A stretch of 44,857 nucleotides of DNA, from the UHGV virus genome UHGV-0186980. The stretch is one strand, 5' to 3'. Positions 3,001-26,918 of this stretch are shown piece by piece. Numbering within the stretch: the stretch's first letter is position 1; every line of letters begins with the position of its first letter. Origin of the DNA: a virus. The notes below the pieces were generated by a model. It saw nothing but the letters and a program-made list of their open reading frames with translations, made no database searches and was not told where the DNA came from. The position numbers were made by a program, and so were the translations under genes.

Positions 3001-5510
3001 CGCTGGGCTTCCTGCCAGGCTTCCGTATCCTTAATCGCATCGGTCAGCTTGTCGTAATACTCACCGATATCGTCGCTGGCCATCCCCTGCACCCAGGCGG
3101 TCCACGGGCTTTCATTGCCGATACGATCAACGATCCGCGCGCGGTACCAGAATATCGCCGCAATCTGCAGGCCCATCTGCTGATACGTTTTACCCGGATA
3201 CGCCACATCAGACAGCGCCATCGCCCCGTTGCCGTTGGGATTAGGACTGTACTGCAGCTCGGTTTTCTGCGTATCGCCGCTCCCCTCCGGGAACTCCCAG
3301 TTCAGCTGCACGCCATGCAGCAGGGAAGTGGTGGTCAGCGCCAGCGGTGCCGACGGCAAACCGATTTTTCCGGTCAGCGTTTTCTCTTCTGAGTATGCCC
3401 AGCCGCTGGAGACCTCTGCAGCGTTGATCGCCCGGACACGGGCCAGATAACGACCGGCGTAAATGCCGCTGACCTCGAACGAGGTGGTCGAGCTGCGCGG
3501 CACGTTAATCCAGTTACCGTCATTACGTCGCCACTGCGCTTCATACGAAATCGCATCTTTCACCGCATTCCAGTGCACCTGCATCGTTTCAACGCTGATG
3601 CCCTGATTCACCACAGAATACGAGCTGATGACGATATTTTCCGGCGGTGACTGGTTCCCCGGAGGAATAACGCTTATCGGGCGCTGGTCGATGATCGCGC
3701 CGGTATCGATACGCGGAAATTTATCCGGGTCGTGGGCCACGCCGGTGATTGTATACGTGGCATTGTTGTTGTCCTTTACCCCAATCACGCGGTACTGCTG
3801 TGTATACAGATCGTCGGACTCAATAACCCATACGCACTCTGTTTCCGGCGTCTCACTGTAGGCCGTAGTGACTGTTATCTGCCGTCGACCGTTGACTGAC
3901 TGGATCGTCCGGGCCTGAGATATGCCTGACGGTAGGTTCAGCTGCAGCCGGTCACCGGCTTTTGCATCAGTATCCCGGTCAAGGGTAATCACCCGGCCAT
4001 TAACCGCACTGATACGCCCGCCGTTCACGCGTCCGGCCAGCAGTTCATCAGCCAGGCCAATGATGTAGCCCGGCTGCGGAATTTTGCCATCGAGACCGAC
4101 ATCGATTTCAACCATGCGGTCTTTGTTGTTGGTCAGAATGCCCCACAGCCCTTTCCTGTGGGCTTCGCTCTGCCGGGTACACCCAATGGCCGTCACTTCG
4201 AGCTGGTTAAAGCTGTAGCGGGAAACCAGCTCCGGGACGAACGCCGGTTCCATCGCATCAGCATACGCATTCGCCGGGTCGGACCAGGAGACCAGCGCGT
4301 TGGTGTAGCGGGCCTTGCTTGTGCTGCTCGAATAACGCGGTTTGCCAATAATGTTCGCCCGCGTGTAGTTGAAATCAACATCGCGCGGCATATCCGCCTG
4401 CACAACAATCTGCTCACCGCTCCAGCAGGTCATTCCCCGGAAAATAGCCGCAAAGTCACGCAGCACGGTGTAGGCATCATTGCGTTCCTGCACGTAAACG
4501 TTACAGAGATAGCGAGGCTCCATGCCATCGCCGCCCCTGCCATCGGGGACCATCTGATCGCAATACTGCGCAATCTGGTACAGCGTCCATTTAGAGATAT
4601 TCGCGCTGGTCAGACGGTTGCCGAGGCCAAACCGGTCTGAAACAACGATATCGTAATAAATCCATGCCGGGTTATCCGTCCAGGCCCATTTAAACCCGCC
4701 GGTCCAGGTGCCGGTATACTCGCGGCTCTCCGGGTTGTAGTTATCAGGAACGCGGATCACGCGCCCGCGTGGCTCACAGGAAATTTGCGGGATGGAACCA
4801 TTAAACTGGCTGGAGTCGAACTCGATATAGAGCAGCGCGGTATGCGGATAGCGCAGCTTCGCGTCGATTACTTCTGTGTAGCTCTGTAACGTCATCACAT
4901 CGCCGATTTTGACGCTGTTGGCGTCCGGCGATACTTTCCGCAGGCGGAGCGTCCATGTGCTCCCCGCTTGCGGCAGGTCGATGCGGTGGCTGCGCTCATA
5001 GCCGGAAGTGGTTTTCCCGGTAACCGCCGTTTCCAGCACGGTCTGCCATGCACCGCCATCTGTCTGCAAATCGATGGCGTATTTAACCGTGTTGCCCACC
5101 ACGTCACCATCATCTTCCTGCTTCATCAGGGACGGCCACTTCAGACGGACGCGGACGGCAGATAGCTGAGTATTTGTAAACGTATGGCTCCAGGCGGTTT
5201 CGCTGGATATTTCTGTTCCGACGCTGATTTCATTTTCAGTGCCGGGAATGCCTTGAATATATTTTTGTGCCTGTGTTCCGGGACGAAATTCCCAGGCCAC
5301 GCCGGAAAAGTTCTCTGACCCGTCGGCATTTAATAGCGGGGTACCATCGAGATAAATATCCTTGCCCGTTAATTCACCTGCAAATTCTCCCTCGCCCAGC
5401 GCGATGAGAATTTTGGCTTTTGCTACGGACTGTAAATCATCCGGCTGCTCCGTCGGCGTGCGCTGGCTTGAGCTGCCACCTTTGCGCCCTTTGATTATGT
5501 TATTTGCCAT
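1..5510 (-). CDS. J: Host specificity / central tail fibre protein J-like, with long C-terminal fibre-repeat extension; 3' end truncated by window
   Basis: ATG at 5510-5508, N-terminus MANNIIKGRKGGSSSQRTPTEQ resembles lambda J; same frame checked open at 2040-2099 and at 3-119; absent from ORF track, consistent with an edge-truncated ORF. Antisense ORFs in the track (955..1836+ etc.) are Ser/Val/Ala-rich junk. Confidence 0.75.
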   Translation of the reverse strand, partial: MANNIIKGRKGGSSSQRTPTEQPDDLQSVAKAKILIALGEGEFAGELTGKDIYLDGTPLLNADGSENFSGVAWEFRPGTQAQKYIQGIPGTENEISVGTEISSETAWSHTFTNTQLSAVRVRLKWPSLMKQEDDGDVVGNTVKYAIDLQTDGGAWQTVLETAVTGKTTSGYERSHRIDLPQAGSTWTLRLRKVSPDANSVKIGDVMTLQSYTEVIDAKLRYPHTALLYIEFDSSQFNGSIPQISCEPRGRVIRVPDNYNPESREYTGTWTGGFKWAWTDNPAWIYYDIVVSDRFGLGNRLTSANISKWTLYQIAQYCDQMVPDGRGGDGMEPRYLCNVYVQERNDAYTVLRDFAAIFRGMTCWSGEQIVVQADMPRDVDFNYTRANIIGKPRYSSSTSKARYTNALVSWSDPANAYADAMEPAFVPELVSRYSFNQLEVTAIGCTRQSEAHRKGLWGILTNNKDRMVEIDVGLDGKIPQPGYIIGLADELLAGRVNGGRISAVNGRVITLDRDTDAKAGDRLQLNLPSGISQARTIQSVNGRRQITVTTAYSETPETECVWVIESDDLYTQQYRVIGVKDNNNATYTITGVAHDPDKFPRIDTGAIIDQRPISVIPPGNQSPPENIVISSYSVVNQGISVETMQVHWNAVKDAISYEAQWRRNDGNWINVPRSSTTSFEVSGIYAGRYLARVRAINAAEVSSGWAYSEEKTLTGKIGLPSAPLALTTTSLLHGVQLNWEFPEGSGDTQKTELQYSPNPNGNGAMALSDVAYPGKTYQQMGLQIAAIFWYRARIVDRIGNESPWTAWVQGMASDDIGEYYDKLTDAIKDTEAWQEAQRDIEETHKELTKTADAIREEVAQQVTDINQSIDDSASEIRQQVDGQIEAVNKSITENINSVNQTLSDNITAVNKSITDAVSDINASVDQQIADVNKTLAEGDAALKSQLQTVENSLKQSIAQANTGWDKAVKQETADRIADVNAKAAQAADQLLNEKNERVAAIESTQQIIQNVNDSLATQMAQISAGTGEQFDSQAIWYFDNDREGWTSNGGTPSVVENGWLRPANHATDAYITSPGISISGSAYRFLKLRLKKTGTPAWSGQIRWRYEGQSFNDSRMLTVAEPDYDSSGRAVLSIQDIPWGSDDSKPVVQFRLDLTVDQSDDNFIIIDWIAVGRPTPGASTAALREESTARANADTAEANKRATLATQMRGTSESNNLADLRSGLLFQEMNARITADKAEVTARESLQTQFNENKSSVAEELSSLSTAQSAQASKISGLETSLGKKADATALQSLTQKVEQQGTTLTSQGNSLTSLSNRVGKAESGVAANSNAITGLQSSVSQQDKTLTSQGSAIAKLQNDLTTTNSNVSKKADASAVTALTNRVSATEGNLTTQSGQLTMLKNTLAEGSLISNGGMDVDLSFWENSGTGSAFTYDAGEKALRTTTGSVRVANVTRIPAEAGLTLTVSFEYKTSETMNSVSSDTVGVITDLGNPVAWLSSESPWLSGVTTSWQTKTVELTIPENFTGNYVYLRFAAGGWVPSNSARLYIRKVDVFSSTGVSKKANASAVTDLTSRVDSAEGKLASHSQAITKLQNDLTTTNSNVSKKADQSALTSLTGRVEKTESGLTAANSNITSLNSSISAAKAAGDDYIPNPAFDPSYDRMGYDVVSSGAAGVPGDCPFAYVVRLAGRDHVPKINNIAVTPGDVFEMSALVACGAGQADFNLYIASGTSATEGVKARLSGGNTKTTAAWKRATWRFTVPSDTNFLRPFLQVNQSSPFGTVWYAADWHLRNVTAANRAQKIADATASAVDTLTTKVTQQGDTLSSIGNRTTALENG

Positions 5511-18616: not shown

Positions 18617-18795
18617 TATTTCTCCCCGCTATTTTTTGCGCTGGCGGATACCGAGCGCGCGATTAAAAAAGACCAAAGCAGACAGAGTATTCCGCCTGTG
18701 ATAAACCCCGCTGCAGGTAATAAAAGCCAGGCTCCGGTAGAAACCAATAAAGCCCCGGCAAGGCCAATAATGAAACTCAGAATTGTGATTAGCAC
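18616..18795 (-). CDS. Possible small membrane protein (59 aa, GTG start), translationally coupled between terminase and portal
   Basis: GTG overlapping terminase 3' end; product VLITILSFIIGLAGALLVSTGAWLLLPAAGFITGGILCLLWSFLIARSVSASAKNSGEK; TAATG overlap with portal start; below track length threshold. Confidence 0.3.
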   Translation of the reverse strand: MLITILSFIIGLAGALLVSTGAWLLLPAAGFITGGILCLLWSFLIARSVSASAKNSGEK

Positions 18796-20510
18796 GCTAC
18801 GTCTTCCTCATCATAGATAGATTTGATGACTGCGCTGTTCAACATGGCGCGCCCTATCCCCATCATTAAACCAACCGCACCATCAATCTTGTTTTGTTTC
18901 CCCTCCTTTGTCGGACGGACAATATCGTCGCTGCCCGGCAAATACCGACCTACAACGTTCTGGATGCACCAGTTCATGATGGGATTTCCGTCATGATGGA
19001 ATCGCCCCGACGCCAGTGCAGCTTCAATCTCTCTCATGGGGTCGCTCATATGGGTGAAGTTCTGTCTGATTTCGACGGGTTCCAGTCCCTCTTCCTCAAG
19101 CAGATGGCGCAAGGAAGTGGCACCATAAGGATCGATAGGACACTGGGCGATTTTCACGTTCTGACGTAACTGCAGGATGGATTCGAAAATCAGCCGATAA
19201 TCTACTTCTGCGCCCTCAGTTGGAATTAAAACGCCCTGTCCCACAAAGGACTGATAACGTTCAGAGGTATGCTTAAGCTTCGGGTCGACAGAATAGATGG
19301 TGTCTTCAGGCACCCAGAACATAGGGCCTACGCAGTAGAAATGGGTAATACCTTCTATATCGCGACGAAAAACAGGAATAACGGCGTTAAGATCGACCTT
19401 TGACGCTAGATCTATTCCCAGCCAGCATTCCTCATCGGCAAAATCAGACAATTTCAGACTCTTGTCAGCAGCAGCCATCCATTTCTGTAAATCGTAAAAG
19501 ACTGTTTTTGCGCTAACCCAACGATTAAAATGCTTGGTCAGGATCTTGTTGGTCTGACTGGGGTTCGATATCGCCAGTAACTGTTTTGCGCGAAGAAAGT
19601 GCTCTTTTACCGATATCCCATAATTGGGATTGGCTTTAATGAGCGCTTCCGGCTGAGTCCAGTCATCATCATCATCCAGACCATAGATGATGCCGAAAAT
19701 GCCCTCATTCTCTTCCCCATTGCGGGTTTTGCGCAGGATCTCCACCACCTGTTCCCGCTTCTCATAGCACGGCGATGTAATGTCATAACCGGCTGTCGTG
19801 ATGATGAGCGTAATGGGTTGCTCGCGAGCCCCCATCCCTGTCGTCATCGTGGTATACAGGGCATCGGTAATATGTTCGTGGTATTCGTCGATAATGGCGC
19901 ATGACGGCGAATCACCGTCACCGGGATCGCCAATCACGGGTGCAAATATGGAGCCATCCGGGCGAGTCATTTTTTTTGCCCAGGGCTTTATAGAAAATTT
20001 CTGCCGCAATGCGGGCAGCTTTTTCACCATCAACAACGCCGGAGCAAACACTTTCCAGGCCTGCTTTTCGGTCGTGGCGCCGCAGTACACTTCCGCACCA
20101 TGTTCACCGTCAGCGCAGAACATATAATTGCCAACGGCAGCGGCAATTGCTGATTTGCCGTTCTTTCTAGGAACTTCGATATAGATCTCAGTGAACCGCC
20201 GCAGGCCACTTTTTTTATTTACCCAGCCAAACGGAACACCCAGGGCAAACTTTTGCCAGGGTTCAAATTCTATCCTGAGTTTTCGGCGGGCCCATTCCCC
20301 TGCGGTATGTGGCATTTTTTGTGCAAAACGAAGAAATCGCTCTGCCTTATTTTTATCGAACCGGTAAGGCCAGTTCGGATCCTTCGCGCGTTCCAGGTCA
20401 TCAAGATGTCGCTTGCAGGCAAGAATAGTTAACTGACATGCCAGAATCTTCCCGCCAACGATATCCCGTGCATACTGGTTCGCCGCATTGACGTTCGGAT
20501 ATGTGGCCAT
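18789..20510 (-). CDS. Terminase large subunit
   Basis: 573 aa; ATPase N-terminal region and nuclease C-terminal region; upstream of portal. Confidence 0.85.
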   Translation of the reverse strand: MATYPNVNAANQYARDIVGGKILACQLTILACKRHLDDLERAKDPNWPYRFDKNKAERFLRFAQKMPHTAGEWARRKLRIEFEPWQKFALGVPFGWVNKKSGLRRFTEIYIEVPRKNGKSAIAAAVGNYMFCADGEHGAEVYCGATTEKQAWKVFAPALLMVKKLPALRQKFSIKPWAKKMTRPDGSIFAPVIGDPGDGDSPSCAIIDEYHEHITDALYTTMTTGMGAREQPITLIITTAGYDITSPCYEKREQVVEILRKTRNGEENEGIFGIIYGLDDDDDWTQPEALIKANPNYGISVKEHFLRAKQLLAISNPSQTNKILTKHFNRWVSAKTVFYDLQKWMAAADKSLKLSDFADEECWLGIDLASKVDLNAVIPVFRRDIEGITHFYCVGPMFWVPEDTIYSVDPKLKHTSERYQSFVGQGVLIPTEGAEVDYRLIFESILQLRQNVKIAQCPIDPYGATSLRHLLEEEGLEPVEIRQNFTHMSDPMREIEAALASGRFHHDGNPIMNWCIQNVVGRYLPGSDDIVRPTKEGKQNKIDGAVGLMMGIGRAMLNSAVIKSIYDEEDVAC

Positions 20511-20944
20511 CAGTCAAACTCATCAAATTCATTCCCGTCATCGTCCTGATCATTTTTGCCGCTGGTCATTCGGATACGGCTGAGCGGATCTAACCCCAGT
20601 AGCGAGCCCAGACGGGCTATCTGGGAAACAGAGTCATTTCTGACGTTTACGGCAGGATGTTTTTTTAACCCTCCCATTTCGCTTTCAGTTGTCAGCCCGT
20701 TAGCCAGTAATTTTTCGGCTTCGAGCATCAGATGGAAGGCGTTGCAGTAAGCCAGAAGTAAAGGGGCATCTTCAAGCTCAAAAACGCCTCTTTCGATCAG
20801 GATTTTACTTTGAGTCTTCCATATTCTTATAGCCGCCTCCCCCATCAACTCAGCCGGGGGCGCGATTCGGGTCAGTTTACTTTTTTGCCCGGTGGGTAAA
20901 ACGGGTTTTCTTCCCCCTCCAGACGATCTAATACCAGCAGCCAT
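20510..20944 (-). CDS. Terminase small subunit (P27-like)
   Basis: 144 aa, acidic C-terminus, overlaps TerL start (ATGA). Confidence 0.6.
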   Translation of the reverse strand: MAAGIRSSGGGRKPVLPTGQKSKLTRIAPPAELMGEAAIRIWKTQSKILIERGVFELEDAPLLLAYCNAFHLMLEAEKLLANGLTTESEMGGLKKHPAVNVRNDSVSQIARLGSLLGLDPLSRIRMTSGKNDQDDDGNEFDEFD

Positions 20945-21081: not shown

Positions 21082-21294
21082 TCAGTCGAGGTGGAAGTCG
21101 TCATTCAGGTTGCGCCGACGACCGCTGCTCGCGTTGTGTGGGCAGGCACTCGAGTTATGCCCGGACTGACCGCAATAACTGCAGCGCAAATTGGCGCGAC
21201 GTGAGGAACCACCCCACGTTTTCGGGCAGTTCGCGTATGTATGAAGCTGTGAACCGCAATAAGTACAGCGGGTATAACCCATCATGCCCTCCAT
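21082..21294 (-). CDS. Small protein with two CX2CX4HX4C zinc-knuckle motifs
   Basis: RCTYCGSQLHTYANCP and RCSYCGQSGHNSSACP. Confidence 0.5.
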   Translation of the reverse strand: MEGMMGYTRCTYCGSQLHTYANCPKTWGGSSRRANLRCSYCGQSGHNSSACPHNASSGRRRNLNDDFHLD

Positions 21295-21312: not shown

Positions 21313-21753
21313 TCAGGTTTCAGTTGGTGCCGGTGCAACGCCACCATCAGCCTGCAGCACACTTTCCGGCAAACGCTCAATCAGCGGGGCATTCTCAAAT
21401 ACTTTGAGACCGTACTGGCCAACCCAAGTGCTTTCCTGCCCAACGCTGCCAGAGATGAAGTCCATCACTTCTGCCAACAGCTCTTTAACCAGAGCCTCCG
21501 TACGCGTCCGCCAGTGGCCTTCAATGGCGACCAGGAGAGGATCTGAACCGTTGGCAATACTTTGCTTGCCTACCGAGTAGGTTTTCTTTTTCGCCTTATC
21601 GGTCACACACTGCAGCTGTGTCATCAGGGCCAGAACAGCAATCGGAGTTGTATCGCGGACTTCGATAGTCATCGTGGCCAGCTTGTTACCCGATTCAGCA
21701 TCAGTGGATGATGCGTAGTACATTGAAATGGTTAAATCATCACGACTGAACAT
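21313..21753 (-). CDS. Hypothetical protein (146 aa)
   Basis: ORF between HNH and terminase small subunit; no motif recognised. Confidence 0.45.
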   Translation of the reverse strand: MFSRDDLTISMYYASSTDAESGNKLATMTIEVRDTTPIAVLALMTQLQCVTDKAKKKTYSVGKQSIANGSDPLLVAIEGHWRTRTEALVKELLAEVMDFISGSVGQESTWVGQYGLKVFENAPLIERLPESVLQADGGVAPAPTET

Positions 21754-21755
21754 GA

Positions 21756-22052
21756 TTAATGGCTCCGGTTACGGTTGCGATTTTTATTGCGGTTACGCTG
21801 ATGGCGCGGTGCGGTTTCGGCTGGCAGGTGCTCGCCTTCGAACGCTTGCGCTGGCTCTTGCGGTTGCGGTTGCGGTTGAGCGGGAACCAGTCCCTCGGGA
21901 ATTTCACCACCTACCTCAAACTTGAGATGCGGTTCTTTCCCCAAGAAATGGCTGAAGTTCAGGCCCGATAGTCCTGCATTGAGCATCGAGATCCCCTCGA
22001 CATCAACGGTAACGAGTTGGCCATCAACGTATTCAATTTTTAAATTCTTCAT
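21756..22052 (-). CDS. Hypothetical protein with Pro/Gln-rich and basic NRNKNRNRNR tail (start refined to ATG 22052)
   Basis: MKNLKIEYVDGQLVTV...; ATGA overlap with HNH stop. Confidence 0.45.
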   Translation of the reverse strand: MKNLKIEYVDGQLVTVDVEGISMLNAGLSGLNFSHFLGKEPHLKFEVGGEIPEGLVPAQPQPQPQEPAQAFEGEHLPAETAPRHQRNRNKNRNRNRSH

Positions 22053-22411
22053 CGTGTTCTCTCTGTTGCGGTTTTCGTTCTGTGGCACGGCCAGCACAAC
22101 GATTCCAGATTGTAATTGTCATCAGTACCGCCGTGGGCTTTAGGAATGATGTGGTCGACGCTGGTAGCTTTTGTGGCGATACCGTGGCGTCGGCAGTTCT
22201 GGCAAAGGTATTTGTCGCGCACGAGTATCTGGGCACGAATGATTTCCCAGGAACGACCGTATCCGCGTTGCTGTCGGGTTTTTCCGGTCTGATAGTTACG
22301 CCAGCCATCGCCAGTGTGTTGCTGCCGATGGATCTCGCAGTATCTAGTGGCGTCATTCGTCACTGCCGCGCATCCTCTGTGCCGGCAAGGTCGTTTAGCT
22401 CGTGGTGGCAT
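22049..22411 (-). CDS. HNH endonuclease (terminase-associated)
   Basis: VDHIIPKAHGG...NLESLCWPCH HNH motif; start refined to MPPRAKRP (track start is upstream junk). Confidence 0.8.
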   Translation of the reverse strand: MPPRAKRPCRHRGCAAVTNDATRYCEIHRQQHTGDGWRNYQTGKTRQQRGYGRSWEIIRAQILVRDKYLCQNCRRHGIATKATSVDHIIPKAHGGTDDNYNLESLCWPCHRTKTATERTR

Positions 22412-22556
22412 ACACATCCTCAAGCATGAATTTGGAGAGAGTAAAAGCGGCACTGTCGATGGGGAACTCTGAAACTGGCAACGATGCGAATGACAAATCG
22501 TCATACGAAATCACCACCAGCTTCCCTCCTACGTATTCAATTTTTAAGCTCTTCAT
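22395..22556 (-). pseudogene. Short paralogous copy (53 codons) of the N-terminus of the 21756..22052 gene, upstream of HNH
   Basis: MKSLKIEYVGGKLVVI... vs MKNLKIEYVDGQLVTV...; 24-nt near-identical DNA at 22533-22556 and 22029-22052. Confidence 0.35.
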
Positions 22557-22730
22557 CATGTGGCATCACGAATACAAAAAGCCCCGCAGATGCGAGGCTA
22601 CTGGTTATACATCAGGGTGTTATTGATAGAGAGCAGCGTGTAAGGTTATCGCTCAGCCGCCTGTGGTGGGACACAGGTAGATATTGTAATTGCAGAGGGA
22701 TAGCTGATTAGCTCTGCTTAAGGAATAGAA

Positions 22731-22931
22731 ATGATTAAAAAGAATATGCACCTTCAAATGGAATCAAATGCCCAAACAATCGACGAATTGAACAAAGAAA
22801 TTGGGCAACTGAAATGTGTCGTTGGTTTCTTAATGACTCAATTACCACCGCAATCTAGGCAGGCTGTCATCAATAATCTTGAGGAGTTTGGACTTGATGA
22901 GTCAGTTAAGGAATTTACTCAGTTCCTTTGA
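22731..22931 (+). CDS. Hypothetical 66-aa protein
   Basis: ATG with AAGGAA RBS; AT-rich accessory region. Confidence 0.4.
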   Translation: MIKKNMHLQMESNAQTIDELNKEIGQLKCVVGFLMTQLPPQSRQAVINNLEEFGLDESVKEFTQFL

Positions 22932-23315
22932 ACAAGGCTTGACCTAATAAATTAATGTACCAGCCTTGAGAATTTTTGGGTTGTGTCCCAGGCGAAGTAG
23001 TGGACTCGCTTCCTTCGCCTGAAACATTTTTTGGGTTTGAAGTTTTGACGTTCAACGTTTTCAAGTTATTCCTCCTTATTACGATCCCCGCTAAGTGATA
23101 CAGACAGATTTATCCCTTGGTAGGGATAGATGTTCTCACCGATTCGTAAATCCGCTCACAGGTCATTCCTGCTTTGTAGCGTTCGTCTGCAATTGCAGCA
23201 TACGCCACGGGGATTAACTACTTATGTCTAACAATCGACAGTCTCATTGTTACAGCCATTAAAAAAACCACCCATGTGGAGTGCCCCCCGAAATGTGGCC
23301 TATCTGATCGCTATG

Positions 23316-23445
23316 AAAAAGGCCGCAAAAGAGATGCGGCCTTTTGTCATGCACAGTTATCGATTAAATAAACTCTCAGGAGCCATCCGGGAGAGCATCA
23401 CTTAAACGGGTAACTGACCTCCGACAGACTGGTGTTGGGACGGAG
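23316..23445. repeat. Imperfect direct repeat copy 1 (~130 bp) containing terminator-like hairpin GGCCGCAAAAGAGATGCGGCC and CTCTCAGGAGCCATCCGGGAGAG
   Basis: Blocks shared with 24610-24740: AAAAAGGCCGCAAAA..ATGCG.CCTTT, CTCTCAGGAGCCA.CCGGGAGAG, TAACTGACC. Confidence 0.55.
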
Positions 23446-23790
23446 GTGCAATGAGAGTAGTGTGTTTCATTTTTTTTCATACCAGCAAACACAAAATAAT
23501 GGCAGTTCTTCCTGTTAATCGATAACTGCTATTCAATTAGTCTGGCCAGACGGATGATTATCCTGCCAGGAGTTATCACACTCACACAATGAAAATCTTT
23601 AAAAAAAATCCTTAGCCGGTTCACTCGCCTTCGAACAGGTGCAATGACCTTGCTCTGACGAAATTAGCTTTAATCGTTCGTTGCCATCTTCCGTACAAAC
23701 AAAATAGTCACAAAAAAATAAAGGTTAAAAAGTGAGCTATTTACTGTCCTGTGGTGTATGGTTAGCAATCACTCACGAGGATAAAAACCA

Positions 23791-23961
23791 TGGCGATGCT
23801 CAAAGACAAGATACGTACACTCAGACCTGTAAAAAGCACCTGTCCTCACTGCTCTCGCCAGTCAACACATAGCCTGTCGAGAATAAAAAACGATATAACA
23901 TTGATCTGCCCATACTGCGGAAATATTTTCCTCCCCTCAGAAAGTAAACCTGTTAAGTAAC
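23791..23961 (+). CDS. Small zinc-ribbon protein (CX2C-x18-CX2C), 56 aa
   Basis: MAMLKDKIRTLRPVKSTCPHCSRQ...LICPYCGNIF; GAGGA RBS 8 nt upstream. Confidence 0.45.
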
Positions 23962-24203
23962 TGATCGAATACTTTACTGAAGCTGAAGTCCACTCTCAGG
24001 CTTCAGTAAACGAAACGACTTAGCAATCAGCGTCAGGACGCGCTACAGCCTGTATCCAGCAGACCGCAAAAATAACGGCTCACTCCTTTCAGGCGATTCA
24101 TTCGCTCAAAATCACCAGGAGTTAACATGCTTCTTCTCCTGCTTCTGATAATCAAAAAACCGCAAATGCGAGGTTTATTTGGTAAATATTGGTTTACCTG
24201 AAC

Positions 24204-24473
24204 CTAGGAATAATAGGCTGCGAAATGCTCCTCAACCTGCGCCCTTGTGTCTGCGCTCTCGTTTAATGTCAATGAGTCATAACCCTTAATGTGAAAAACA
24301 GGTTCATATGCATAAACAGTAATCAATGCGTAAATTGCATTGTCAGTACCAGAAAAAATCTCATATTTCACACGCGACAGGCGCTTATGTTCATTAACTA
24401 ACATGTATGTTTCGATAAGCTTATGAGTAACCACGTTTTTTCCTTCATGACAAAAAAATCCCCTTTTAACCAT
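24204..24473 (-). CDS. Hypothetical 89-aa protein
   Basis: ORF in AT-rich cassette; no motif recognised. Confidence 0.4.
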   Translation of the reverse strand: MVKRGFFCHEGKNVVTHKLIETYMLVNEHKRLSRVKYEIFSGTDNAIYALITVYAYEPVFHIKGYDSLTLNESADTRAQVEEHFAAYYS

Positions 24474-24609
24474 ACGCGTTAGGAGCTAAGAATTGAAATT
24501 ATTAGCATTATCGAAGCCACTCGGCAGAATGGTCTCTGTGATGCATTTGCATTTGCATTTATCTTTGCCATGCGTACAAGCAAAATGGTGGCCTTACGGA
24601 TGCCTGTTA

Positions 24610-24740
24610 CGCACAATAAAAAAGGCCGCAAAAAAATGCGACCTTTGGTTAGTACCAGTTAGAAAACTAAAATCTCTCAGGAGCCACCCGGGAGAGGCTT
24701 TTCTGTTTTTTAACTGACCACTGCCGTTTCGGTGTTGACT
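24610..24740. repeat. Imperfect direct repeat copy 2 (~130 bp)
   Basis: See copy 1 at 23316-23445. Confidence 0.55.
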
Positions 24741-24918
24741 GGCAGTGATAACGTGATGATAGCTTCATTTAAGTTATCGATATCATTTAAATATCTAAAG
24801 AACTATTTAAACCAATAATTCTCAACTCGCCGGAACATTCAACCATAGAAACAGGTTTCTATGCTGGTCTTTTGATGGTAAGCATCAATTCACCACAACC
24901 AGCTTAGTTGCTAATAAA

Positions 24919-25131
24919 TTATTCGGGGGTACCTTCAACGTTGAACCATAGATCTAAATGTTTAATGTAGCGCTGGATGGACACACAAATAACCACTCCA
25001 TCTTTAAGGTTAACAGACTTAATAACACATCCTTTCGGTGCAAAATACTCCCCATCATAATGGGGGCGAATGGAATGCTCGTCTCCGTAACGATAACCGT
25101 GCGGAAGTTGAGGGAGTGAATTTCTTGTCAT
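24919..25131 (-). CDS. Hypothetical 70-aa protein downstream of spanin genes
   Basis: ORF directly downstream of lysis cassette; no motif recognised. Confidence 0.4.
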   Translation of the reverse strand: MTRNSLPQLPHGYRYGDEHSIRPHYDGEYFAPKGCVIKSVNLKDGVVICVSIQRYIKHLDLWFNVEGTPE

Positions 25132-25298
25132 GGGCAGCTTCTTAGATAAAAGGAATTTGAAAATCCATAGTGCATTAGCAACCTTGACTTAGATACCAAC
25201 TTTTCATTGTTTACTGCTCTAATATCTCGTTTTCAGATTTTTTGTTCATACGATGATTTAAATATCAATACCTTAAGCGTGCGACATTTATATCTGAT

Positions 25299-25529
25299 TT
25301 ATCTTGCTCCCTTCTCTGTAAGCTGCGGGCAGTTGGCCTGCACGGATTTGTTGTACGCCAAGATGTCGCGCTTCGTCTGCTTATCCAGCACGTCAATATC
25401 GCGGTCAGTGAGATAGATAATTTTCGCCCACAGGCACCCTGTATCAACGACCACCGGGGCGGGTGAATTGCTCGCGCAGCTCACGATCAACATCGTCATC
25501 AGGCATATGGCTAACAGTCTGCTGTACAT
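25299..25529 (-). CDS. o-spanin (Rz1-like outer-membrane lipoprotein), overlapping the 3' end of the i-spanin gene
   Basis: MYSRLLAICLMTMLIVSCAS lipobox; alternate frame overlapping Rz-like gene. Confidence 0.6.
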   Translation of the reverse strand: MYSRLLAICLMTMLIVSCASNSPAPVVVDTGCLWAKIIYLTDRDIDVLDKQTKRDILAYNKSVQANCPQLTEKGAR

Positions 25530-25722
25530 CACTGGCCTCCCTGGTGGCTTCCTCTTTCCGTTCTGCCGCAGCGACTCTGGCGGCGGCATCCTCTTCTGTA
25601 CGTTTCTTCTCAGATTCCGCTACGGCTTTTTCACGACCGCTCATTCTGCCCAAACCAAATACACCCATGAGCAGAAGAACTGCCGCAGTGAGAAATGCCA
25701 GAATGGCTTTAATTTGCGTCAT
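25444..25722 (-). CDS. i-spanin (Rz-like)
   Basis: N-terminal TM helix then charged coiled coil; directly downstream of endolysin. Confidence 0.65.
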   Translation of the reverse strand: MTQIKAILAFLTAAVLLLMGVFGLGRMSGREKAVAESEKKRTEEDAAARVAAAERKEEATREASDVQQTVSHMPDDDVDRELREQFTRPGGR

Positions 25723-26261
25723 AGCTTCACTCGCTCTTTCACCCAGCCATAAACGAACGACTCATTAGCCGAGCGCTGTTCAGCCAGTTCAAGATACCTT
25801 TGGCCCTGGCTGCAATTGAGAGCGCGCAGCAGCACTTCTTCACCTTCCTTACCCCGGGTATTCAGATAGGATTTCAAAGCATTGATGCTACGGGGTCCAA
25901 TCTGCCCGTCAGCAATAAGATCTGGATAAAGTTTCTGTTGATTGTTGAAAACGTTCAGCCAGCGCTGGAACCATTTCACCTGAACAGATGGCCCCATATT
26001 TACGCCTGTATCGCACAACTCTGCCGCAATTGATGGAGAAACTGTCGCAACCAGGTCAAAGCGCGGCCCATACCAGTAATCGGCTGAAAGGATATCCAGA
26101 GCCTGCTGACGAGTCAGATCACGCATATCGCCTGAATAACCATGGGCACGGGCAACGGCCTGAGTAATCCCCCAGTTAGTTGGACCACCCTTGTCGTTTG
26201 GATTGTTAACATAGCCACCCTCTTTACCGAGGATGCTGTTGAAAATATCTTCTTTAGTCAT
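25719..26261 (-). CDS. Endolysin (GH108-type lysozyme with peptidoglycan-binding domain)
   Basis: N-terminus MTKEDIFNSILGKEGGYVNNPNDKGGPTNWGIT typical of GH108 family as remembered. Confidence 0.75.
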   Translation of the reverse strand: MTKEDIFNSILGKEGGYVNNPNDKGGPTNWGITQAVARAHGYSGDMRDLTRQQALDILSADYWYGPRFDLVATVSPSIAAELCDTGVNMGPSVQVKWFQRWLNVFNNQQKLYPDLIADGQIGPRSINALKSYLNTRGKEGEEVLLRALNCSQGQRYLELAEQRSANESFVYGWVKERVKL

Positions 26262-26539
26262 TAATCCCTCAGTACATCAATCAGGCGCGCCACATTCCCT
26301 CTAAACCAGAGAACCGCAGCGCAGATAAGTATGTTCCCCAGCACCACCAGCCAGTTCGCTGACTCGTAAAGGCCGAACAGGAAACGAAATGGAATGCTGG
26401 CATACACCAGCACCATGAGATAAGCGATGATCGAAATTCCCGGGCGATGCCGCGCGCCATCACGCCGATAGAACATCAGGATCAGCACAATAACCGCACA
26501 AATCACAGCATTCACCAGAGCCGCCGGATTATTTACCAC
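26261..26539 (-). CDS. Holin/antiholin-like membrane protein
   Basis: 92 aa with 2-3 hydrophobic helices, immediately upstream of endolysin. Confidence 0.55.
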   Translation of the reverse strand: MVNNPAALVNAVICAVIVLILMFYRRDGARHRPGISIIAYLMVLVYASIPFRFLFGLYESANWLVVLGNILICAAVLWFRGNVARLIDVLRD

Positions 26540-26918
26540 TGGAGCCTCCTCCCCGTAGCCGGGTCAGCATACTGAACAAGCTATTCAGGTCCTGGCTATT
26601 TAGAAAAGTCAGCACCTTAATGATCAACGCAGAAATAATGACCGCACCCAGCGCATCAAGCGGGCGTTCTCTGTAACCGGTCCACACCGCTAACTTTGCC
26701 CCAAGCAAACCAGCGCCAAGTACGCCAACAATAAATGACGTAACGAAGTATGCTGCCAGACGCTTGCGGGTAATATCGGCCGCAGTTGCAACGTAAAACA
26801 CGGCACCGGCAAAAGCACCGAACACAACGCCATAATCAATTCCGGTTACCATGCCGAAAATACTGGCGCCCATGAGCCCGGCGGTCGCTATGGCAGTACC
26901 AGAAACAGGTTCGGACAT
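26529..26918 (-). CDS. Putative holin (multi-TM membrane protein)
   Basis: 129 aa, Gly/Ala-rich TM helices, first gene of lysis cassette. Confidence 0.55.
   Translation of the reverse strand: MSEPVSGTAIATAGLMGASIFGMVTGIDYGVVFGAFAGAVFYVATAADITRKRLAAYFVTSFIVGVLGAGLLGAKLAVWTGYRERPLDALGAVIISALIIKVLTFLNSQDLNSLFSMLTRLRGGGSSGK

What the first reader, a model, noticed from the sequence alone, without database searches (positions are those of the whole stretch)
22029..22556. HNH endonuclease gene flanked by duplicated gene starts
The first 24 nt and about 16 codons of the gene downstream of HNH (MKNLKIEYVDGQLVTV) are repeated upstream of HNH as a 53-codon ORF (MKSLKIEYVGGKLVVI) that then diverges and ends inside the HNH 5' end. 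This suggests HNH was inserted into or next to an ancestral gene, leaving a truncated paralogous remnant.
Basis: seen in the sequence. Interest (0 to 1): 0.4.

Follow-up and report, generated by a model that had tools for sequence, protein, structure and literature searches.

The report
Gene stump beside phage packaging nuclease
The short reading frame upstream of the HNH nuclease gene is the decaying front end of a neighbouring gene family, left where two Klebsiella prophage modules were joined by recombination; this is an ordinary scar of phage mosaic evolution, not a new system.

Summary
All genes here are on the minus strand. A 53-codon ORF (22556..22395) and the 98-codon gene after the HNH gene (geneA, 22052..21756) share 24 of their first 26 nt. 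Profile comparison shows homology over 34 residues (E 1e-12).

In about 130 related Klebsiella prophage loci, relatives without the HNH gene have one full geneA directly after the same terminator and ribosome-binding site that precede the short ORF. The short ORF's front end is closest to that HNH-less allele (17-23 of 30 residues), not to the adjacent geneA (10-15 of 30).

The short ORF evolves without coding constraint: dN/dS is 0.6-1.2, variation is equal at all three codon positions, and it is broken in 4 of 49 loci. HNH, geneA and geneB are under strong constraint.

The HNH is a full-length relative of the terminase-associated GVE2 nuclease. It is intact in 64 of 65 loci with the cognate HK97-type terminase. 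With other terminases it is absent or frameshifted in 16 of 19 loci.

My conclusion is that the short ORF is a recombination scar at the left edge of an HNH-led module. It is neither a homing insertion nor a within-genome duplication. Interest is low.

The parts
22572..22599 (-). Intrinsic terminator (AGCCUCGCAUCUGCGGGGCU followed by a U-tract) that ends the upstream block. In HNH-less relatives the same terminator directly precedes intact geneA.
   Evidence: Terminator scan: 8-bp stem with 6 GC pairs. It appears in the RNA fold. The 46 nt upstream of the ATG are identical in L031 (short ORF) and L046 (intact geneA).
22455..22556 (-). Codons 1-34 of the short ORF: the 5' remnant of a geneA-family gene, of the allele type found in HNH-less phages with GpA-type terminase.
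   Evidence: hhalign matches residues 1-34, E 1.2e-12. Identity to the L046-type allele is 17-23/30, against 10-15/30 to the adjacent geneA types. The region is colinear with the geneA start in L007 and L046.
22395..22454 (-). Codons 35-53 plus the stop of the short ORF. This tail has unknown origin. It carries the HNH Shine-Dalgarno sequence (GAGGA, 22417-22421) and overlaps the HNH start by 17 nt.
   Evidence: It shows no nucleotide or protein similarity to any geneA allele. It does not resemble the sequence upstream of the HNH gene in phiKO2, L060 or the L072 group, judged by eye. The sequence was read.
22516..22561 (-). Upstream copy of the 46-nt direct repeat (start of the remnant).
22012..22057 (-). 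Downstream copy of the 46-nt direct repeat (start of intact geneA plus the last 5 nt of the HNH gene).
22049..22411 (-). HNH endonuclease, 120 aa. It has an N-terminal zinc ribbon (C9-x4-C14 ... C25-x2-H28) and an HNH core with two CxxC motifs. It is the terminase-associated packaging type.
   Evidence: PF01844, E 1.4e-14. phrog_144. Full-length match to GVE2 HNHE 5H0M, E 7.8e-18. dN/dS 0.05-0.11. Intact in 64/65 loci with the cognate terminase.
21756..22052 (-). geneA, 98 aa, phrog_4567, function unknown. It has a 4-strand beta domain (residues 1-50), a disordered P/Q-rich linker and a basic RNRNKNRNRNR tail. It is the phiKO2 gp61 homologue.
   Evidence: Intact in 80/81 loci.
21313..21753 (-). 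geneB, 146 aa, phrog_2473, function unknown. It is always paired with geneA. It is the phiKO2 gp62 homologue.
   Evidence: Intact in 81/81 loci.
21082..21294 (-). geneC, 70 aa, with two CCHC zinc knuckles.
   Evidence: Weak zf-CCHC hits. 87% identical to a phiKO2 right-end ORF.
20510..20944 (-). Terminase small subunit, P27 / Terminase_4 family.
   Evidence: PF05119, E 3.7e-17.
18789..20510 (-). Terminase large subunit, HK97-like (TerL_ATPase plus TerL_nuclease). It is the cognate partner of the HNH.
   Evidence: PF03354 and PF20441. Association table.

Best explanation
The short ORF is a non-functional stump. It consists of the first ~34 codons of a geneA-family gene fused to ~19 codons of unknown origin. 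It was left at the left edge of a mosaic block that begins exactly at the HNH start codon and runs HNH-geneA-geneB. The inferred history is as follows. A Klebsiella prophage of the type 'lysis genes - terminator - geneA - geneB - lambda-like (GpA) terminase' recombined illegitimately with a phage carrying the HNH-led block. The break fell inside the resident geneA, and the incoming block supplied a complete geneA of a different allele. The stump has since drifted and been shuffled by homologous recombination. The HNH itself is not a selfish element. It is the accessory nuclease of the HK97-type terminase (P27-family small subunit plus TerL) encoded 1.1 kb downstream, and is presumably needed for cos cleavage during packaging. 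The following are shown directly: the homology, the positional equivalence, the relaxed constraint, the repeated breakage of the stump, and the HNH-terminase association. The order of events and the HNH's role in packaging are inferred.
For: (1) HNH-less relatives (L007/L064/L065 and L046-L055) have one full geneA directly after the terminator. The window's sequence upstream of the short ORF plus its first 41 nt is colinear with that region (window 22721-22516 against L007; 22600-22516 against L046). Homology resumes at geneA. The 46 nt before the ATG are identical in L031 (stump) and L046 (intact gene).
(2) Stump residues 1-30 match the HNH-less allele at 17-23/30 and the adjacent alleles at 10-15/30. 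Residues 31-48 match at chance level. hhalign homology stops at residue 34.
(3) There is no coding constraint. dN/dS is 0.6-1.2, against 0.05-0.11 for HNH and 0.03 for terS and terL. Variable sites per codon position are 10/12/10 of 34. In the set anchored on geneB, which is unbiased with respect to the stump, the stump is frameshifted in L077, L083 and L121 and has lost its ATG in L078. That is 4 of 49 loci, and in these four loci the HNH is intact. Across the whole geneB-anchored set, geneA is intact in 80/81 loci and geneB in 81/81. AlphaFold2 gives geneA a confident 4-strand domain (pLDDT ~85). For the stump it gives only the first hairpin, with the rest below pLDDT 50.
(4) The left neighbour of the HNH gene is of at least three kinds: terminator plus stump; a different terminator plus a ~110-nt non-coding spacer (23 loci); or a gp59-like gene (phiKO2, L060). 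Homology begins at the HNH ATG in each case. The stump is therefore not needed for HNH expression.
(5) The HNH is a full-length homologue of GVE2 HNHE, a family described as lying next to terminase genes and acting in packaging (PMC5304195, PMC3592412). It is intact in 64/65 loci with the cognate TerL. With other terminases it is absent in 10 loci, disrupted in 6 and intact in 3 (Fisher p 2e-13, not corrected for shared ancestry). The disruption is an 11-nt tandem duplication in phages that carry a second HNH with a different terminase.
Against: The origin of the last 19 codons of the stump is unexplained. In the first, stump-selected data set the frame was open in 18/18 alleles, with P about 0.03-0.08 under neutrality. 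That signal disappeared in the unbiased set, but most alleles are still open. Three genes (geneA, geneB, geneC) separate the HNH gene from terS, which is less tight than in HK97. Three loci keep an intact HNH next to a GpA-type or other non-cognate terminase. The direction of events (gain of the HNH block versus loss by recombination between the two repeats) cannot be fixed from these data. The loci are related to one another, so the counts are not independent events.
Confidence: 0.75

Rival explanations
1. The HNH gene is a free-standing homing endonuclease. It cut near the conserved 5' end of geneA in an HNH-less phage and was copied in by break repair, together with donor flanks, and this duplicated the gene start.
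For: There is presence/absence polymorphism at one locus, with related flanks in L007 and the window. Direct repeats flank the gene. The first 26 nt of geneA are unusually conserved among alleles that are only 34-40% identical overall, as a homing target would be. Xu and Gupta speculate that nicks by such HNH enzymes could drive conversion of HNH-minus phage to HNH-plus (PMC3592412). Three intact copies sit beside non-cognate terminases.
Against: The left flank is not conserved among HNH-bearing phages; there are at least three kinds. The gene decays by frameshift when a different HNH and terminase are present and is absent with GpA terminases, which a selfish element would not do. It is a full-length homologue of a terminase-associated HNH. 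Purifying selection is strong, with dN/dS about 0.1.
Confidence: 0.1
2. The short ORF is a functional small gene. It could act either as a micro-protein (a beta-hairpin decoy of geneA) or as a leader ORF whose translation opens the HNH ribosome-binding site.
For: It is present in 49 of about 75 HNH-bearing loci and open in most of them. There is one in-frame 3-nt indel. Its stop lies 14 nt inside the HNH gene. A local hairpin (GCUUGAGG / CCACGAGC) can pair the HNH Shine-Dalgarno sequence with codons 2-4.
Against: dN/dS is about 1 and there is no third-position excess. Three independent frameshifts and a lost start codon occur with the HNH gene still intact. 23 loci and phiKO2 express the HNH gene with no such ORF upstream. 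The predicted hairpin shows no covariation, and the whole-region fold has z = -0.17. In the window the Shine-Dalgarno sequence seen in relatives (AAAGG) is gone.
Confidence: 0.08
3. geneA was tandemly duplicated in place. The HNH gene later landed between the copies and the first copy decayed.
For: There are two same-orientation copies of the gene start 504 nt apart.
Against: The upstream copy is closer to the allele of HNH-less phages than to its own neighbour. The same stump family sits next to two very different geneA types that are 34-37% identical. No locus shows two full copies.
Confidence: 0.04
4. The similarity of the two starts is coincidental, or merely reflects A-rich codon preference at gene starts.
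For: Only 26 nt are nearly identical, and A/T-rich starts are common.
Against: 0 of 100 shuffles gave a match. Profile-profile E is 1.2e-12 over 34 residues. The short ORF hits the N-terminus of phrog_4567, the geneA family.
Confidence: 0.01

Closest known systems
Terminase-associated HNH endonucleases of cos phages (HK97 gp74 type; Geobacillus virus E2 HNHE, PDB 5H0M; group 1 zinc-ribbon HNH enzymes of Xu and Gupta 2013)
   Same: It is small (120 aa), with an N-terminal zinc ribbon and an HNH core with [CxxC]2. It aligns over its full length to 5H0M. It is encoded just upstream of a P27-family small terminase and an HK97-like large terminase. Its retention tracks that terminase.
   Different: Three small genes (geneA, geneB, geneC) lie between it and terS, rather than immediate adjacency. 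No biochemical data exist for this protein. A few relatives keep it beside a lambda-like terminase.
Mosaic-junction gene remnants in temperate phages (modular evolution by illegitimate and homeologous recombination; e.g. PMC2327257, PMC3945230)
   Same: There is a sharp homology boundary at a gene start, different left neighbours in different phages, a truncated gene fragment at the joint, and later shuffling by homologous recombination through short conserved patches.
   Different: Here the fragment keeps an open 53-codon frame in most relatives and overlaps the next gene, so it looks like a gene. The source of its last 19 codons is unknown.
Klebsiella phage phiKO2 right-end genes gp59-gp62 (NC_005857)
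   Same: HNH (gp60), geneA (gp61) and geneB (gp62) are 85-97% identical in protein and in the same order, with the same ATGA overlap.
   Different: phiKO2 has gp59 (241 aa) instead of the terminator plus stump upstream of the HNH gene. Homology to the window stops at the HNH ATG.
Free-standing homing endonuclease genes of phages (intronless homing)
   Same: An HNH-family nuclease gene with presence/absence polymorphism between related genomes, lying next to a conserved sequence patch.
   Different: The flanks are not conserved on the left, the gene is lost or frameshifted when its partner terminase is replaced, and it belongs to the packaging HNH family.

Membership tests
Terminase-associated (packaging) HNH endonuclease | HNH catalytic motif with a [CxxC]2 zinc site | tested here: met
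   PF01844, E 1.4e-14, residues 70-115. C70xxC73 and C106xxC109, DH at 86-87 and H110 were read from the translation.
Terminase-associated (packaging) HNH endonuclease | N-terminal zinc-ribbon motifs (CxxxxC / CxxH), as in group 1 of Xu and Gupta | tested here: met
   RPC9RHRGC14 ... YC25EIH28 in the sequence. The motif definition is from PMC3592412.
Terminase-associated (packaging) HNH endonuclease | Full-length similarity to a characterised member | tested here: met
   GVE2 HNHE 5H0M, E 7.8e-18, query residues 1-119 against chain residues 1-127.
Terminase-associated (packaging) HNH endonuclease | Encoded next to P27-type TerS and HK97-type TerL, and co-inherited with them | tested here: met
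   terS is PF05119 and terL is PF03354 plus PF20441, lying 1.1 kb downstream. The HNH is intact in 64/65 loci with the cognate TerL, against 3/19 with other terminases. Caveat: three genes intervene.
Terminase-associated (packaging) HNH endonuclease | Stimulates or enables cos cleavage by terminase | not testable with these tools
   Needs biochemistry or genetics.
Free-standing homing endonuclease gene | Clean insertion between flanks that are conserved in both HEG-plus and HEG-minus genomes | tested here: not met
   The right flank (geneA) is conserved, but the left flank is of at least three unrelated kinds. In this window it includes a 5' gene fragment plus 19 unrelated codons.
Free-standing homing endonuclease gene | Persistence independent of host-genome function (selfish spread) | tested here: not met
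   It is frameshifted by an 11-nt duplication where a second HNH and terminase are present, and absent with GpA terminases.
Free-standing homing endonuclease gene | Cleaves the HEG-less allele near the insertion point | not testable with these tools
   Needs enzyme assays.
Gene remnant (pseudogene fragment) at a mosaic junction | Homologous to only part of a full-length gene family | tested here: met
   Residues 1-34 only. The rest matches at chance level.
Gene remnant (pseudogene fragment) at a mosaic junction | Occupies the position of the intact gene in relatives | tested here: met
   Same terminator, spacer and ATG position as intact geneA in L046 and L007.
Gene remnant (pseudogene fragment) at a mosaic junction | Relaxed selective constraint and recurrent disruption | tested here: met
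   dN/dS 0.6-1.2. Variable sites 10/12/10 per codon position. 4 of 49 loci disrupted, against 1/81 for geneA and 0/81 for geneB.
Gene remnant (pseudogene fragment) at a mosaic junction | No product with a function | not testable with these tools
   Needs expression data and mutants.
Transposon-type target-site duplication | Short identical direct repeats flanking an element that has terminal inverted repeats or a transposase | tested here: not met
   The repeats are 78% identical over 46 nt and belong to different alleles. There are no inverted repeats at the HNH borders and no transposase.

The most novel reading that the evidence does not exclude
The near-invariant first ~26 nt of geneA (ATGAAGAnnTTnAAnATTGAATACGT) are kept even between alleles that are 34-40% identical, and are present on both sides of the HNH gene. 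They could act as a recombination 'linker' that lets the HNH gene be gained or lost cleanly and lets geneA-geneB cassettes be swapped. On this reading the stump is maintained because it provides that left-hand homology, and the HNH nick may stimulate the exchange.
Probability: 0.08. Interest if true: 0.4.

Novelty: new member of a known kind. Interest (0 to 1): 0.15.

Why it matters
This matters mainly for annotation. The 53-codon ORF is called as a hypothetical protein in Klebsiella genomes, but it is best labelled a gene fragment. The HNH gene should be read as part of the packaging machinery rather than as a mobile nuclease. The locus is a clean worked example of a phage module boundary. 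It also shows an accessory nuclease tracking its terminase: it is kept with the cognate enzyme, frameshifted when a second HNH and terminase take over, and absent with lambda-like terminases. It does not open a new question.

Tried and rejected
- The region has no match in 5,426 complete E. coli genomes; the family is from Klebsiella.
- The genome-contig scan with geneB returned a single locus.
- RNA structure: the alignment fold shows no covariation, and the single-sequence fold has z = -0.17.
- The antisense 74-codon ORF (22402-22626, plus strand) is open in only 5/18 alleles, so I rejected it.
- Origin of stump codons 35-53: there is no nucleotide similarity to geneA alleles beyond chance. 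Two comparisons with the A2 allele reached p 0.014-0.025 among 16 tests, which I do not consider convincing. There is also no resemblance to other sequences upstream of the HNH gene, by eye.
- The test for 'ORF kept open by selection' gave P 0.03-0.08 in a data set chosen by similarity to the ORF. The unbiased geneB-anchored set overturned it, with four broken alleles.
- Using HNH dS as a neutral yardstick for the stump was abandoned. L019 and L026 have near-identical HNH genes but 14% different stumps, with a breakpoint about 35 nt inside the HNH gene.
- geneA and geneB function: no PDB sequence hits and no Foldseek PDB hit for the geneA model.
- P0069 and P0072, short geneA-like proteins, turned out to be truncated geneA at its normal position after the HNH gene, or to lie on a 1-kb contig. 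They are not further stumps.

Full report
**Anatomy.** The genes around the finding are on the minus strand. Reading 5' to 3' on that strand, the elements are:
- an intrinsic terminator, 22599-22580 plus a T-tract;
- a 53-codon ORF, 22556..22395;
- an HNH endonuclease gene, 22411..22049 (PF01844, phrog_144);
- geneA, 22052..21756 (98 aa, phrog_4567);
- geneB, 21753..21313 (146 aa, phrog_2473);
- geneC, 21294..21082 (70 aa, two CCHC knuckles);
- a P27-family small terminase, 20944..20510 (PF05119);
- an HK97-like large terminase, 20510..18789 (PF03354 and PF20441).

The short ORF's stop lies 14 nt inside the HNH gene. The HNH stop overlaps the geneA start as ATGA.

**Checking the observation.** The two gene starts share ATGAAGAnnTTAAAAATTGAATACGT. 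This pattern has two matches in the window and none in 100 shuffles. The starts form a 46-nt direct repeat, 78% identical, 504 nt apart. BLASTP gives 12/22 identities, E 6e-7. Alignments of the two families compared by hhalign match over residues 1-34 (probability 97.8%, E 1.2e-12). The short ORF also hits the N-terminus of the geneA PHROG.

**Relatives.** The region is 93% identical to the right end of Klebsiella phage phiKO2 from geneB up to exactly the HNH start codon. Upstream of that point phiKO2 has an unrelated gene, gp59, and no short ORF. There is no match in E. coli genomes. The short ORF has 53-54-aa homologues, 69-92% identical, in Klebsiella oxytoca and K. pneumoniae prophages. 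I collected about 130 loci from IMG/VR and one GTDB genome. They were anchored on the short ORF, on geneA, or, without bias towards the short ORF, on geneB.

**What HNH-less relatives look like.** L007/L064/L065 and L046-L055 have geneA-geneB but no HNH gene. Their terminases are lambda-like: Nu1 or DUF1441 plus GpA. In these loci geneA starts directly after the same terminator. The window's 22721-22516 is colinear with the L007 region that ends 41 nt into geneA. The window's 22600-22516 is colinear with the corresponding region of L046. Homology resumes at the window's own geneA. The 46 nt before the ATG (terminator, spacer and AAAGG Shine-Dalgarno sequence) are identical in L031, where they precede the short ORF, and in L046, where they precede intact geneA. 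The short ORF therefore sits at the ancestral geneA position.

**Which allele the stump came from.** Over residues 1-30 the short-ORF alleles match the HNH-less L046-type geneA at 17-23/30. They match the two geneA types found after the HNH gene at only 10-15/30. Over residues 31-48 identity is at chance level. No nucleotide similarity is detectable there either. The identical first 26 nt are conserved across the whole geneA family: 26/27 nt between alleles that are 34-37% identical in protein. They are not a sign of a recent copy. The stump is thus a foreign allele's 5' end, not a duplicate of the neighbouring gene.

**Is the stump a gene?**
- For the same phage pairs, dN/dS is 0.6-1.2 for the short ORF, 0.05-0.11 for HNH and about 0.03 for terS and terL.
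- Variable sites are spread evenly over the codon positions: 10, 12 and 10 of 34 in codons 1-34.
- In a first data set the frame was open in 18/18 alleles, with P 0.03-0.08 under neutrality. That set had been chosen by similarity to the ORF.
- In the geneB-anchored set, 3 of 29 alleles carry frameshifts (L077, L083, L121) and one has ATT in place of ATG (L078). This makes 4 of 49 loci, all with an intact HNH gene.
- In the whole geneB-anchored set, geneA is intact in 80/81 loci and geneB in 81/81.
- AlphaFold2 gives geneA a confident four-strand N-domain (pLDDT about 85). For the short ORF it gives only the first hairpin, with everything after residue 28 below pLDDT 50. The alignments were shallow, so this is weak evidence.
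- In the window the Shine-Dalgarno sequence seen in relatives is also gone.

I conclude that the short ORF is a decaying fragment.

**Is the stump needed for HNH expression?** No. 23 loci have a different terminator and a ~110-nt non-coding spacer in front of the HNH gene. phiKO2 and L060 have a gp59-like gene there. A small hairpin can pair the HNH Shine-Dalgarno sequence with codons 2-4, but it shows no covariation. The region as a whole folds no better than shuffled sequence.

**What the HNH is.** It aligns over its full length with the Geobacillus virus E2 HNH endonuclease (5H0M; E 7.8e-18). It has the N-terminal CxxxxC...CxxH zinc ribbon plus the [CxxC]2 HNH core of the phage enzymes found next to cos and terminase genes (PMC3592412; PMC5304195). 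Across non-redundant loci the pattern is:

| Terminase context | HNH intact | HNH disrupted | HNH absent |
|---|---|---|---|
| Cognate HK97-like TerL | 64 | 1 | 0 |
| Different TerS/TerL with its own second HNH | 1 | 5 | 0 |
| GpA-type terminase | 2 | 1 | 10 |

Fisher's test gives p 2e-13, not corrected for shared ancestry. The frameshift is an 11-nt tandem duplication, with further 8-nt and 24-nt repeat expansions in the DHxxPK motif. This is the behaviour of a functional partner of one terminase type, not of a selfish homing gene.

**History inferred.** The HNH start codon is a mosaic boundary with at least three kinds of left neighbour. In the window's lineage the left neighbour is a broken geneA of the type carried by HNH-less, GpA-terminase phages. 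The simplest account is an illegitimate join between such a phage and an HNH-geneA-geneB block. Homologous or homeologous exchanges would have followed. For example, L019 and L026 have near-identical HNH-to-terL regions but stumps that differ by 14%, with a breakpoint about 35 nt inside the HNH gene. Such processes are the accepted sources of temperate-phage mosaicism (PMC2327257, PMC3945230). The reverse event is also possible: loss of the HNH gene by recombination between the two 46-nt repeats would regenerate an L007-like arrangement. Two informative bases in L007 are compatible with this, which is not decisive. A second scar lies 0.6 kb upstream: a 3' fragment of a second Rz-like spanin at 23110-23208, although a full lysis cassette exists at 25299-26918.

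**Verdict.** There is a truncated remnant. It was not made by duplication in this genome, and there is no evidence that the HNH gene inserted itself. The feature is an ordinary recombination scar beside a known class of packaging nuclease, so both novelty and interest are low.

Noticed in passing
window 23110-23208 (-): A 32-codon ORF (…YAAIADERYKAGMTCERIYESVRTSIPTKG) is the C-terminal end of a second Rz-like spanin, about 29/31 identical to the end of the 170-aa protein of phage ST846-OXA48phi9.1. The window already has a complete lysis cassette (two holins, endolysin, Rz/Rz1) at 25299-26918. This is another recombination scar close to the finding.
   Followed up: partly
window 21756-22052 (-), geneA: The AlphaFold2 model shows a four-strand beta domain (residues 1-50, pLDDT ~85), then a disordered P/Q-rich linker and a basic RNRNKNRNRNR tail. 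A profile of the family also hits repeated segments of giant scaffoldin-like proteins at or next to their CBM_X2 (PF03442) modules (E down to 1.6e-17). Function is unknown. geneA-geneB sit between the lysis genes and three different terminase types.
   Followed up: partly
window 21082-21294 (-), geneC: A 70-aa protein with two CCHC zinc knuckles lies between geneB and terS. Xu and Gupta (PMC3592412) note that separate zinc-ribbon proteins are often encoded next to terminase-associated HNH enzymes. It is 87% identical to an ORF at the phiKO2 right end.
   Followed up: no
L005, L006, L009, L056 etc. (K. oxytoca-type relatives), HNH gene; L004 nt 3618-4004: Where a second HNH (113 aa) plus a different TerS/TerL follows geneB, the first HNH gene carries an 11-nt tandem duplication (frameshift). 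It also carries 8-nt or 24-nt repeat expansions inside the catalytic DHxxPK motif. This looks like decay of a redundant packaging nuclease in progress.
   Followed up: yes
L131, L134, L044: The HNH-geneA-geneB block lies directly upstream of a lambda-like GpA terminase. The HNH gene is intact in two of these loci and disrupted in one. They may be primary recombinants showing that the block can move without its terminase.
   Followed up: partly
window 22731-22931 (+): A 66-aa gene (phrog_6806, function unknown) is encoded on the opposite strand, between the spanin fragment and the terminator. It sits in a 2-kb stretch (22600-25300) of small ORFs and terminators that looks like a moron region between the lysis and packaging genes.
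   Followed up: no
L137 (Logan ERR12450557 contig), 3001-3144: In a phiKO2-like element, the geneA after the HNH gene is only 47 codons long (homologous to about residue 35, then divergent), with geneB starting 170 nt later. geneA itself can therefore be truncated in some relatives.
   Followed up: no
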